Positions 52,351 through 52,494 of a stretch of DNA of 64,000 nucleotides are shown in pieces. Source of the stretch: a phage; assembly GCA_024911895.1 (NCBI GenBank), contig GCA_024911895.1_3948.1; one strand, 5' to 3'. A program made the translations under genes and the position numbers. The notes beneath the pieces are model-generated. The model did no database searches. It was given only the letters and a program-made list of their open reading frames with translations, and was not told where the DNA came from. How positions within the stretch are numbered: the stretch's first letter is position 1; each line of letters opens with the position of its first letter.

Positions 52351-52494
52351 AATTATCTTTGTAGATAAGCTACCCAGACTTGCTTAAGGTCTGTAGCGAT
52401 GTGCCTTTTTGGGTTTAAATCTAGAATTTACCCTTTCACCCTTTGTGGTCGCATACTCACAGGTAAGCTTAATAACTTATCTACAAAGATAATT
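52351..52494 (-). ncRNA. Candidate structured RNA: 19-bp perfect inverted repeat enclosing about 106 nt
   Basis: AATTATCTTTGTAGATAAG (52351-52369) and its exact reverse complement (52476-52494). Confidence 0.3.

What the first reader, a model, noticed from the sequence alone, without database searches (positions are those of the whole stretch)
52351..52494. Perfect 19-bp inverted repeat enclosing about 106 nt between tRNA-Lys and the repeat boxes
AATTATCTTTGTAGATAAG and its exact reverse complement flank a 106-nt segment that contains an internal AGAC...GTCT hairpin around a CTTAAG palindrome. A long terminal helix with a structured interior is the architecture of Y RNAs and other stable small RNAs; it could also be a miniature inverted-repeat element or a homing-endonuclease target.
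Basis: seen in the sequence. Interest (0 to 1): 0.55.

Follow-up and report, generated by a model that had tools for sequence, protein, structure and literature searches.

The report
Structured RNA beside phage Ro60-like system
The inverted repeat is the closing stem of a conserved, roughly 145-nucleotide non-coding RNA in the tRNA operon of a FelixO1-like phage, lying next to a tRNA-mimicking Y-RNA-like gene and 1.2 kb from a Ro60-like protein gene, so it probably belongs to an undescribed phage Ro60/Y-RNA-type system.

Summary
The 19-bp perfect inverted repeat (52351-52369 / 52476-52494) is the longest in the window and exceeds what shuffles give.

It is not a transposon and not coding. Across three sequence types of FelixO1-like phages the helix stays paired through compensatory changes. 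The G.U pattern puts the RNA on the minus strand, the strand of all 25 tRNAs.

The helix (P1) encloses three hairpins and ends 4 nt before tRNA-Lys(UUU). This adjacency holds in five diverged lineages.

The context decides the reading:
- The "repeat box" directly 5' of the element is a permuted tRNA-like T-AS-D module laid out like bacterial YrlA.
- Its 5' motif UACAGCAA is the most enriched 7-mer beside 75 distant DUF2828 genes and matches the Dictyostelium Class I RNA motif.
- Hairpin P4 of the element is a shortened copy of these units.

Best reading: a Y-RNA-like or Ro60-associated structured RNA processed out of the pre-tRNA transcript. Expression, processing and protein binding are untested. 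The element itself fails the YrlA and Class I membership tests.

The parts
52351..52494 (-). The element: a structured RNA of about 144 nt (P1 closing helix enclosing hairpins P2, P3, P4)
   Evidence: Minus-strand fold -48.3 kcal/mol, z -5.3. Covariation on 22 distinct sequences of types A/B/C: 98.4% of cells paired, 11 pairs changed on both sides, 0/500 shuffles. 82 G.U versus 1 A.C cell places the RNA on the minus strand.
52471..52494 (-). P1, 5' strand (AAUUAUCUUUGUAGAUAAG + UUAUU)
   Evidence: 9 of 24 P1 pairs change on both sides, including a paired 1-nt deletion in type B.
52351..52374 (-). P1, 3' strand. It ends 4 nt before the 5' end of tRNA-Lys(UUU).
   Evidence: The same abutment (0-4 nt) is seen in L040, L041 and L042.
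52436..52466 (-). P2 hairpin (loop AGUAUGCGAC). This is the least certain helix.
   Evidence: MFE only. The loop core GAGUAUGCG is shared with L040, with different stems (GUG/CAC versus GGGG/CCCC).
52411..52433 (-). P3 hairpin with loop UUCUAGA, invariant in types A and B
   Evidence: Stems differ between types A and B (GGGU..AAA / UUU..ACCC versus GAGC.UGA / UUA.GCUU). In type B the outer helix has 3 of 7 pairs changed on both sides with 100% pairing. G.U variants occur in L030.
52375..52393 (-). P4 hairpin CAGAC-CUUAAGCAA-GUCUG: a shortened copy of the neighbouring box units, with a loop ending in GCAA conserved in all five lineages
   Evidence: 100% paired, 2 pairs changed on both sides. 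Stems CAGAC/GUCUG, CAAACC/GGUUUG, CAGUC/GACUG, AAAGUC/GACUUU and AGAGAC/GUCUCU carry loops CUUAAGCAA, CUUUAGCAA, CCUUAGCAA and CCUAUGCAA.
52271..52346 (-). tRNA-Lys(UUU), immediately 3' of the element on the RNA strand
52496..52627 (-). Neighbouring YrlA-like RNA: stem AGACCGU/ACGGUCU, motif UUACAGCAA, V hairpin, T arm (GAAGG UUCGAUU CCUUC), acceptor-like AS hairpin, D arm (GUGU AAUGGUA GCAC)
   Evidence: 99.3% of cells paired; AS stem has 3 covarying pairs while T and D are invariant. Weak Rfam hits to tRNA (24.7 bits) and Dicty_Class_I_RNA (14.7 bits).
52641..52714 (-). Class-I-like unit (CAGAAGACCAAAUACAGCAA ... UUGGUCUGG)
53136..53199 (-). Class-I-like unit (CAGAAGACCGUUUACAGCAA ... ACGGUCUGG)
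53294..53366 (-). Class-I-like unit (CAGAAGACCAAUUACAGCAA ... GGUCUGG)
53701..55116 (-). Ro60-like protein gene (471 aa; Pfam DUF2828 + DUF7788; PHROG 850 'RNA-binding protein')
53562..53682 (-). Two sigma-70-like promoter matches upstream of tRNA-Pro that could drive the tRNA/Y-like RNA operon
   Evidence: TTGACA-17-TAATAT; TTGACA-18-TAAAGT with TG. Consensus matches only. No minus-strand terminator-like site lies between them and the element.
51112..51201 (-). Second long hairpin (26-nt arms) abutting tRNA-Leu(UAG). Its arms resemble P1 (UCUUUNUAGA) and its interior carries a UUACAGCUU unit.
   Evidence: The equivalent is in L040 at 9906-9993.

Best explanation
The inverted repeat is the closing helix (P1: 19 perfect bp, 24 bp with G.U pairs) of a non-coding RNA of about 145 nt. 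It is encoded on the minus strand inside the polycistronic tRNA operon of a FelixO1-like phage (Felixounavirus). P1 encloses three hairpins. The hairpin next to the 3' strand (P4: stem CAGAC/GUCUG, loop CUUAAGCAA) is a shortened copy of the flanking 'box' units (stem AGACC/GGUCU followed by UUACAGCAA). One of those units, directly 5' of the element, carries a circularly permuted tRNA-like T-AS-D domain laid out like bacterial YrlA. A protein predicted to fold like Ro60 (DUF2828 + vWA) is encoded 1.2 kb upstream on the same strand.

Proposed mechanism:
1. The element is transcribed with the tRNAs from promoters near 53.6 kb.
2. Its 3' end is made by RNase P cutting at the 5' end of tRNA-Lys, 4 nt downstream.
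3. Its 5' end is made by a cut between the upstream unit and P1, or by RNase III within the long AU-rich P1.
4. It accumulates as a nuclease-resistant long-stem RNA.
5. It acts as a Y-RNA-like partner or accessory of the Ro60-like ring through P4 and/or P1, in RNA (probably tRNA) surveillance during infection.

Shown here: the structure, the strand, conservation with covariation, the fixed link to tRNA-Lys(UUU), the Ro60 fold of the neighbouring protein, the YrlA-like neighbour, and the association of the motif with DUF2828 genes. Inferred: transcription, processing enzymes, accumulation, protein binding and biological role.
For: - Structure and strand: 98.4% of 671 cells paired, 11 pairs with changes on both sides, 0/500 shuffles, slid controls 28-47%. 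Within type B, 97% paired and 3 of 7 covarying pairs in the outer P3 helix. 82 G.U versus 1 A.C cell.
- Conservation: type A in 190 records and type B in 60, out of about 255 related phage records. Diverged homologues with long P1 and a GCAA-loop P4 lie directly 5' of tRNA-Lys(UUU) in L040, L041 and L042.
- Not coding: no ORF is shared between types.
- Ro60-like neighbour.
- YrlA-like neighbour with covarying AS stem and invariant T and D arms, as Chen et al. 2014 describe for YrlA.
- Motif link: ACAGCAA is the top enriched 7-mer in sense-strand flanks of 75 distant DUF2828 genes (70 hits in 42 loci, 7.6x). TACAGCAA is enriched 13.8x and the antisense strand is not enriched. The motif always follows the 5' strand of a stem, and some units carry T-AS-D modules.
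- P4 versus box unit: CAGACC(C)UUUAGCAAGGUCUG versus AGACCGUUUACAGCAA...ACGGUCUGG.
- Distance and strand meet the 'within 4 kb, same strand' criterion of Chen et al. 2014.
Against: - No transcript, end-mapping or binding data exist for any Felixounavirus in the searchable literature.
- The element has no GNCGAA motif and no T or D arms, and it has no Rfam match.
- The P4 loop lacks the C that is invariant in UACAGCAA. The shortened form TT[AT]AGCAA is not enriched beside distant DUF2828 genes (0.6x).
- A covariance model of the element finds nothing in the 75 distant loci, and does not even recover the L041/L042 versions. The element proper is therefore clade-restricted, and its link to the protein rests on synteny that is shared by descent.
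- The Ro60 relationship is seen by predicted fold only. Sequence profiles do not reach Ro60 (E 1.2).
- A perfect 24-bp AU-rich helix may simply be cut by RNase III.
Confidence: 0.5

Rival explanations
1. The element is a processing stalk only. P1 is an RNase III site, like the stems that bracket rRNAs or the RNase III site 5' of tRNA-Gln in the phage T4 tRNA precursor (both recalled from my own knowledge, not checked here). It would separate the upstream RNAs from tRNA-Lys/Met/Ile, and the interior would be a spacer with no function of its own.
For: - P1 is a 19-24 bp uninterrupted AU-rich helix that directly abuts a tRNA 5' end.
- A second long hairpin with similar arm sequence abuts tRNA-Leu(UAG).
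- Similar long helices precede tRNA-Pro in L041 and L042.
Against: - The interior is not free to drift. The P3 loop UUCUAGA and the P4 loop are invariant between types A and B, whose interiors are otherwise only about 65% alike.
- The P3 and P4 stems covary.
- P4 with its GCAA loop is kept in five lineages.
- RNase III cleavage is compatible with, not opposed to, release of a functional interior RNA.
Confidence: 0.22
2. The element is an independent stable small RNA of the tRNA operon, analogous to T4 species 1 and 2 (rnaC/rnaD) RNAs. Its function would be unrelated to the Ro60-like protein, for example a decoy or regulator tied to tRNA-Lys(UUU), which is a known target of anticodon nucleases such as PrrC (my own knowledge).
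For: - Strict linkage to the 5' end of tRNA-Lys(UUU) in five lineages, although the gene order around it differs.
- Conserved loops that could be interaction sites.
- Two exchangeable sequence types between near-identical flanks, as expected under diversifying or cassette-type selection.
Against: - No target or partner could be identified.
- The P4 similarity to the adjacent Ro60-associated units argues for a shared system.
- Similarity of P4 to the tRNA-Lys anticodon arm is limited and is not kept in type B.
Confidence: 0.18
3. The feature acts at the DNA level: a miniature inverted-repeat transposable element, a homing-endonuclease target or footprint, or a protein-binding or cruciform palindrome.
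For: Perfect terminal inverted repeats. HNH endonuclease genes are polymorphic in this tRNA cluster in relatives.
Against: - It is single copy in the window, with no other arm-like sequence at 4 or fewer mismatches apart from one unrelated hit.
- The flanks ATTA and ACCA give no target-site duplication.
- It sits at the same site in about 250 of 255 related records, and no empty site was seen.
- One-sided changes are almost all G.U on the tRNA strand (82 versus 1), which DNA symmetry would not produce.
- Inner hairpins covary too.
- HNH insertions lie elsewhere.
Confidence: 0.03
4. The region is protein-coding: the 85-aa ORF at 52399-52656 (+), annotated 'hypothetical protein' or 'unknown' in some records.
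For: An ORF exists and is annotated in some GenBank records.
Against: No equivalent ORF exists in types B, C or D. It runs antisense through the tRNA-like unit. The substitution pattern is RNA-structural.
Confidence: 0.01

Closest known systems
Bacterial/phage YrlA and YrlB Y RNAs bound by Ro60 (Rsr) (Chen et al. 2014, PMC4201824; Thermus phage phiLo Yrl1/2, PMC12135203)
   Same: - It is encoded within 4 kb of, and on the same strand as, a Ro60-fold protein gene.
- Its 5' and 3' ends pair in a terminal stem around a structured interior.
- It sits next to an RNA with the permuted T-AS-D tRNA-like domain typical of YrlA.
- YrlB is likewise a smaller companion without the tRNA-like domain.
   Different: - The protein is DUF2828/DUF7788 and is not detectable as TROVE by sequence.
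- There is no GNCGAAN0-1G motif; the associated units carry UUACAGCAA instead.
- The terminal helix is much longer and perfect.
- The RNAs are embedded in a tRNA operon and abut tRNA genes.
- The element has no T or D arms.
Dictyostelium Class I RNAs (Rfam RF01414; Kjellin et al. 2021, PMC7919456)
   Same: - The flanking box units, and compact 59-nt units beside distant DUF2828 genes, share its layout: a short stem joining the ends, then the motif (CC)UUACAGCAA directly after the 5' stem strand, a variable middle and a 3' ...CUG.
- RF01414 is the best or only non-tRNA Rfam match in two independent scans.
- P4 of the element reads CCUUA-AGCAA.
   Different: - Scores (about 15 bits) are far below the gathering score of 41.5.
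- The hosts are phages, not amoebae.
- The element is 144 nt and its P4 motif lacks the invariant C6.
- Class I RNAs are reported to bind an RRM protein (CIBP), and no Ro60 link is known.
Phage T4 species 1 and 2 stable RNAs and the RNase III site of the T4 tRNA precursor (my own knowledge, not checked here)
   Same: These are non-tRNA structured RNAs co-transcribed and processed within a phage tRNA cluster. A long helix lies next to a tRNA 5' end.
   Different: Sequence and structural similarity were not tested. No Ro60-like gene is known to me in T4.
RNase III processing stems of rRNA operons
   Same: A long helix formed by sequences flanking a structured RNA inside a polycistronic stable-RNA transcript.
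   Different: The enclosed RNA is about 100 nt with conserved loops. Cleavage is untested.

Membership tests
YrlA-type bacterial Y RNA (Chen et al. 2014) | Encoded within 4 kb of a Ro60 orthologue, on the same strand | tested here: met
   [not shown]
YrlA-type bacterial Y RNA (Chen et al. 2014) | Terminal stem formed by the 5' and 3' ends | tested here: met
   P1 has 24 pairs, 98% paired across 22 sequences, and 9 pairs change on both sides. The true RNA ends are unknown.
YrlA-type bacterial Y RNA (Chen et al. 2014) | GNCGAAN0-1G motif near the 5' end | tested here: not met
   The closest strings are UGCGAC (type A), GCCGAUG (type B) and UGCGGC (L040), in the P2 loop. None fits the motif.
YrlA-type bacterial Y RNA (Chen et al. 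2014) | Nearly invariant T-like and D-like stem-loops with an acceptor-like (AS) hairpin between them | tested here: not met
   These are absent from the element. The P3 loop UUCUAGA is only loosely T-loop-like, and the interior shows no significant similarity to any tRNA of the window. They are present in the neighbouring unit at 52496-52627.
YrlA-type bacterial Y RNA (Chen et al. 2014) | Bound by the Ro60 orthologue in vivo | not testable with these tools
   This needs immunoprecipitation or EMSA.
Dictyostelium Class I RNA (RF01414) | Score at or above the Rfam gathering threshold (41.5 bits) | tested here: not met
   There is no hit on the element. The neighbouring unit scores 14.7 bits, a distant compact unit scores 15.0 bits, and nothing reaches gathering in 16 loci.
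Dictyostelium Class I RNA (RF01414) | 42-65 nt, a 6-bp stem joining the ends, and the 11-nt motif CCUUACAGCAA right after the 5' stem strand (U3, C6, C9, A10, A11 invariant) | tested here: not met
   The element is 144 nt. P4 alone has a 5-6 bp stem plus CCUUAAGCAA, which lacks C6. The flanking box units do carry UUACAGCAA after a stem.
Metazoan-type Y RNA (Rfam RF00019) | Rfam match; conserved bulged Ro-binding helix | tested here: not met
   No Rfam match at E <= 10. P1 is unbulged in type A and has one 1x1 mismatch in type B.
MITE / small transposable element | Terminal inverted repeats plus target-site duplication, multiple copies, and occupied versus empty sites | tested here: not met
   Inverted repeats are present. 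There is no duplication (ATTA versus ACCA), the element is single copy, and the site is occupied in about 250 of 255 relatives.
RNase III substrate | Helix of about 20 bp or more (met); cleavage by RNase III (untested) | tested here: inconclusive
   A helix of 19-24 bp is present in all lineages. Cleavage cannot be tested computationally.

The most novel reading that the evidence does not exclude
The element and its neighbours reveal an undescribed ribonucleoprotein system. A divergent Ro60 family (DUF2828 + vWA) is widespread in large tRNA-rich phages. Its partner RNAs are 'stem + UUACAGCAA' units, some fused to permuted tRNA-like domains and some wrapped in long helices that abut tRNA genes, as here with tRNA-Lys(UUU). 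The same stem-plus-motif design defines the Dictyostelium Class I RNAs, whose function has been unknown for about 20 years and which were thought unique to dictyostelids. Class I RNAs would then be Y-RNA analogues of a DUF2828-type Ro protein. The 144-nt element would be a phage-specific composite member that couples this system to tRNA-Lys processing or surveillance.
Probability: 0.3. Interest if true: 0.9.

Novelty: new variant of a known kind. Interest (0 to 1): 0.7.

Why it matters
If true, four things follow.
1. FelixO1-like phages, which are widely used Salmonella and E. coli typing and therapy phages, carry a Ro60/Y-RNA-type RNA surveillance module inside their tRNA operon. This gives a function to a 471-aa 'RNA-binding'/DUF2828 protein and to several hundred bases of conserved 'spacer'.
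2. It defines a second RNA recognition code for Ro60-like rings, UUACAGCAA rather than GNCGAA.
3. It offers a concrete, testable hypothesis for the Dictyostelium Class I RNAs and for eukaryotic DUF2828 proteins.
4. It suggests that long helices abutting tRNA genes in phage tRNA clusters are deliberate packaging or processing devices for such RNAs.

Tried and rejected
- Rfam scans of the cluster and of the element gave no family match for the element.
- Reading the 3' arm as a promoter (GATAAT 6 nt before tRNA-Lys) fails: there is no -35 and the promoter scan does not call it.
- Reading the P3 loop UUCUAGA as an anticodon loop (CUA, amber suppressor) or a T-loop fails: the stem is 3+4 bp with a bulge, there is no acceptor or CCA, and there is no tRNA hit.
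- Derivation of the interior from a tRNA is not significant: the best local score of 22 lies within the null distribution, median 18 and 95th percentile 24.
- The MITE and coding readings are rejected.
- Covariance model R1 of the element, searched over 83 sources, found only the window and L040. It missed L041/L042 and found nothing in 75 distant loci.
- The shortened P4-type motif TT[AT]AGCAA is not enriched beside distant DUF2828 genes.
- RF01414 at gathering threshold on 16 loci gave no hits.
- Sequence searches of the protein against the PDB found no significant Ro60 match. Only fold comparison shows the relationship.
- The literature holds nothing on Felixounavirus transcriptomes or small RNAs, on DUF2828 function, or on a Dictyostelium Class I - Ro60 link.
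- The afdb50 fold library, needed to look for a dictyostelid DUF2828 protein, was unavailable.
- The 5' UTR of the window's Ro60-like gene has no stem+ACAGCAA unit, unlike several distant loci.

Full report
**Where the window comes from.** The window is a FelixO1-like phage (Felixounavirus, Ounavirinae). The region 51400-53600 is 92-97% identical to SP22, Mushroom, FelixO1 and about 250 other records. ARAGORN finds 25 tRNA genes between 48.1 and 53.5 kb, all on the minus strand.

**The observation.**
- The arms AATTATCTTTGTAGATAAG (52351-52369) and the exact reverse complement (52476-52494) enclose 106 nt.
- The inner hairpin CAGAC/GTCTG around CTTAAG lies at 52375-52393.
- tRNA-Lys(UUU) (52271-52346, minus) begins 4 nt from the element.
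- This is the longest short-range perfect inverted repeat in the 64 kb. Twenty shuffles reached only 12-15 bp.
- Only four inverted repeats of 15 nt or more within 400 nt exist in the window, and three lie in the tRNA cluster.

**It is an RNA structure on the tRNA strand.**
- The same 154 nt occur at 95% identity or more in 190 phage records (type A).
- A second version, whose interior is only about 65% alike, occupies the identical position in 60 further records (type B). These are Mooglevirus, Suspvirus and some Felixounavirus, and their flanks are nearly identical to those of type A.
- A third version lies in a metagenomic relative (L040).
- I aligned 22 distinct sequences of types A, B and C in RNA sense. 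A structure of P1 (24 pairs), the top of P3 and P4 gave 98.4% of 671 cells paired.
- Eleven pairs changed on both sides, for example U-A/C-G, G-C/C-G, and a paired one-nucleotide deletion.
- 0 of 500 shuffles reached the observed value, and slid controls gave 28-47% pairing.
- Within type B alone, the outer P3 helix has 3 of 7 pairs changed on both sides with 100% pairing.
- One-sided changes are G.U on the minus strand in 82 cells. Only 1 A.C cell would be G.U on the plus strand.
- No ORF is shared between the types.
- No second copy of the arms exists in the window, and the flanks (ATTA / ACCA) show no target-site duplication.
- The MITE, DNA-palindrome and coding readings are therefore rejected.

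**Anatomy (minus strand, 5' to 3').**
- P1 5' strand: 52494-52471.
- P2: 52466-52436, loop AGUAUGCGAC. This is supported only by the MFE fold and by a shared loop core in L040.
- P3: 52433-52411. The loop UUCUAGA is invariant in types A and B, and the stems covary.
- P4: 52393-52375 (CAGAC-CUUAAGCAA-GUCUG).
- P1 3' strand: 52374-52351.
- UAAU, then tRNA-Lys.

**Deeper conservation.** I used the neighbouring protein to find distant syntenic phages with 54-63% protein identity.
- In each of L040, L041 (Yersinia phage P778) and L042, a 21-36-nt inverted repeat with about 100-120 nt between the arms lies 0-4 nt upstream of tRNA-Lys(UUU), although the surrounding tRNA order differs.
- All keep a long P1 and a P4 hairpin next to the 3' strand.
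- The P4 stems covary (CAGAC, CAAACC, CAGUC, AAAGUC, AGAGAC). The 9-nt loop always ends in GCAA.
- P3 is not recognisable in L041 and L042.
- A covariance model built from types A-C recovers only the window and L040 and finds nothing in 75 more distant loci. The element proper is therefore restricted to this phage clade.

**Context 1: a Ro60-like protein.**
- The gene just upstream of the tRNA operon on the same strand (53701-55116, 471 aa) matches Pfam DUF2828 + DUF7788 and PHROG 850 'RNA-binding protein'.
- An AlphaFold model from a 37-sequence alignment has pLDDT 87 and pTM 0.87.
- It aligns over its full length with Ro60: Foldseek 2i91_A, E 6e-8, TM 0.67.
- The vWA MIDAS residues (DxSxS) are invariant.
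- Sequence methods do not see Ro60, which is probably why this family was not included in surveys of TROVE-annotated genomes.

**Context 2: the 'repeat box' next to the element is a YrlA-like tRNA mimic.** The unit 52627-52496 reads, in order:
- stem AGACCGU;
- UUACAGCAA;
- spacer;
- a V hairpin;
- T arm (GAAGG-UUCGAUU-CCUUC);
- AS hairpin (ACUCGGC-AGAU-GUCGAGU);
- D arm (GUGU-AAUGGUA-GCAC);
- spacer;
- ACGGUCU.

This is the order Chen et al. 2014 describe for YrlA: 5' motif, V, T, AS, D, closed by the terminal stem. As they describe, T and D are invariant here while the AS stem covaries (ACUCGGC/GUCGAGU, ACCCUUC/GAAGGGU, ACACG/CGUGU). On 12 sequences 99.3% of cells are paired, with 3 pairs changed on both sides. 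Three further units without the tRNA-like domain lie at 52714-52641, 53199-53136 and 53366-53294. They have the form CAGAAGACC-N3-UACAGCAA ... GGUCUGG.

**Context 3: the motif goes with the protein.** I examined 75 distant viral contigs encoding DUF2828 proteins that are 39-48% identical.
- ACAGCAA is the most enriched 7-mer in the sense-strand flanks: 70 hits in 42 loci, 7.6-fold.
- TACAGCAA is enriched 13.8-fold, and the antisense strand is not enriched.
- The motif density is 0.79 per kb in the first 500 nt after the stop codon and 0.47-0.65 per kb in the first kb before the start codon. Elsewhere outside the gene it is about 0.00-0.15 per kb (0.13 per kb within the gene).
- The motif always follows the 5' strand of a stem. 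Units are often tandem.
- Several units carry permuted T-AS-D modules: L072, L083, L054, L056, L060, L073.
- In six loci the unit sits 35-46 nt before the start codon with its 3' strand running into the Shine-Dalgarno sequence. This looks like autogenous control and so suggests protein binding. That is an inference.
- tRNA genes lie within 4 kb in 25 of 75 loci, with 126 on the same strand and 0 on the opposite strand.
- Caveat: some of the 75 loci are close relatives of each other, so the counts are not fully independent.

**Context 4: resemblance to Dictyostelium Class I RNAs.**
- In two independent small scans, Rfam family Dicty_Class_I_RNA (RF01414) was the only non-tRNA family matched end to end by these units.
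- The window unit 52497-52622 scores 14.7 bits. A compact 59-nt unit right after the DUF2828 stop in L055 scores 15.0 bits over model positions 1-56 of 56.
- Both scores are far below the gathering score of 41.5, and nothing reaches gathering in 16 loci. This is resemblance, not membership.
- Class I RNAs are 42-65 nt. They have a 6-bp stem joining the ends and an 11-nt motif (Rfam consensus CCUUACAGCAA) directly after the 5' stem strand, with U3, C6, C9, A10 and A11 invariant. They are of unknown function and are reported as unique to dictyostelids.
- The phage motif variants (UUACAGCAA, UUUCCGCAA, UUUCAGCAA) keep exactly those invariant positions.
- A pull-down with one Class I RNA gave CIBP, GuaB, NdkC and a protein of unknown function, DDB_G0281243.
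- I could not test whether dictyostelids have a DUF2828 protein.

**How the element fits.**
- P4 is, nearly base for base, a box unit with its middle removed. Type B of phage HK3 reads CAGACC-CUUUAGCAA-GGUCUG, against AGACC-GUUUACAGCAA...ACGGUCUGG in the box unit.
- The P4 loop lacks the C6 of the motif, however. This shortened form is not enriched near distant DUF2828 genes.
- A second long hairpin (51201-51112) abuts tRNA-Leu(UAG). Its arms resemble P1 (UCUUUNUAGA ... UCUANAAAGA-UUUAAU-tRNA) and it encloses a UUACAGCUU unit.
- L043 has a 22-nt-arm helix enclosing a UUACAGCAA unit right after its DUF2828 gene.
- L046 has a 19-bp helix enclosing a tRNA-Gly right after the gene.
- 'A long helix wrapped around a Ro60-associated unit, next to or around a tRNA' is thus a recurring design.

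**Most likely mechanism (inferred).**
- Transcription with the tRNAs would start from the promoter-like sites at 53682-53562. No minus-strand terminator-like site lies before the element.
- RNase P cleavage at tRNA-Lys would make the 3' end.
- A cut after the upstream unit, or RNase III in P1, would make the 5' end.
- The product would be a stable long-stem RNA acting with the Ro60-like ring.
- I put about 0.9 on 'conserved structured RNA on the tRNA strand' and about 0.5 on the full statement.
- The main rivals are a pure RNase III processing stalk (0.22) and an independent stable RNA tied to tRNA-Lys (0.18).

**Novelty.** No paper in the searchable library describes RNAs or Ro60-like proteins of Felixounavirus, a function for DUF2828, or a Class I - Ro60 link. 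Phage Ro60 with Y-like RNAs is known for mycobacteriophages and others, and for Thermus phage phiLo. The element fails the YrlA and Class I membership tests, so I rate it a new variant of a known kind: a Ro60-associated structured RNA.

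Noticed in passing
[not shown]
   Followed up: yes
window 52496-52627 (-): A circularly permuted tRNA-like RNA (T arm, acceptor-like hairpin, D arm, closed by the AGACCGU/ACGGUCU stem) with a 5' UUACAGCAA motif. The layout is YrlA-like. ARAGORN does not call it, and Rfam tRNA scores only 24.7 bits.
   Followed up: yes
window 52641-52714, 53136-53199, 53294-53366 (-); also L043 6510-6860, L045 4440-4960, L055 5410-5540: Repeated 'stem + UACAGCAA' units match the design and motif of Dictyostelium Class I RNAs. ACAGCAA is the top enriched 7-mer beside 75 distant DUF2828 genes, on the sense strand only.
   Followed up: yes
L053 3963, L056 1773, L057 3956, L061 2868, L071 3959, L073 3912: A stem+ACAGCAA unit lies 35-46 nt before the DUF2828 start codon, and its 3' strand (..CUGA) runs into the GGAG ribosome-binding site. 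This looks like autoregulation of the Ro60-like gene. It is absent in the window (55117-55196 has a promoter-like TTGACA-17-TAAAGT and a GACAGACU/AGUCUGUC hairpin).
   Followed up: partly
window 51112-51201 (-): A second long hairpin (26-nt arms, 85% complementary) ends 1 nt before tRNA-Leu(UAG). Its arms resemble P1 of the element and its interior holds a UUACAGCUU unit. An equivalent lies in L040 at 9906-9993. Similar long helices precede tRNA-Pro in L041 (7647-7838) and L042 (7800-7995).
   Followed up: partly
L046 6433-6592: In a distant phage contig, a 19-bp (95%) helix encloses a complete tRNA-Gly(GCC) gene 44 nt after the DUF2828 stop codon, so a real tRNA sits wrapped in a long terminal stem.
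   Followed up: no
L045 4597-4715; L043 about 6763-6915: These tRNA-like genes have 40-100-nt insertions between the D arm and the T arm. The insertions contain (U)ACAGCA motifs. Rfam tRNA scores 47.4 bits for the L045 one, and ARAGORN does not call them.
   Followed up: no
window 51694-51775 (-) and 51474-51548 (-): These tRNA-like sequences are not called by ARAGORN. The first gives an Rfam tmRNA hit limited to the tRNA-like ends (22 bits, E 7e-6) and ends in CGACCA. Relatives annotate it as tRNA-Arg, tRNA-OTHER or a pseudogene.
   Followed up: no
window 52373-52472 versus L004/L007 equivalents: There are two exchangeable sequence types of the element (A in 190 records, B in 60) between nearly identical flanks. 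Type B also occurs in some Felixounavirus (HK3, DaR-2019a, fKMPT1). This suggests cassette exchange by recombination.
   Followed up: partly
window 52747-52759 (plus-strand G run): A homopolymer of 13 G lies next to a GGGCUAUUUAGCCC hairpin where relatives have GGGAGGGG. It may be a sequencing or slippage artefact, or a variable tract.
   Followed up: no
L001 789-1136; L003 961-1353; relatives: HNH homing-endonuclease genes are present or absent between tRNA-Ser(UGA) and tRNA-Ile in different Felixounavirus genomes. This is an insertion polymorphism within the tRNA cluster, but not at the element.
   Followed up: partly
L015 4005-4024 and L017 668-687: Two unrelated viral contigs match the pattern CAAAGANNATTACCAGACCG without a tRNA-Lys neighbour. 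They were not examined and are probably chance or coding matches.
   Followed up: no
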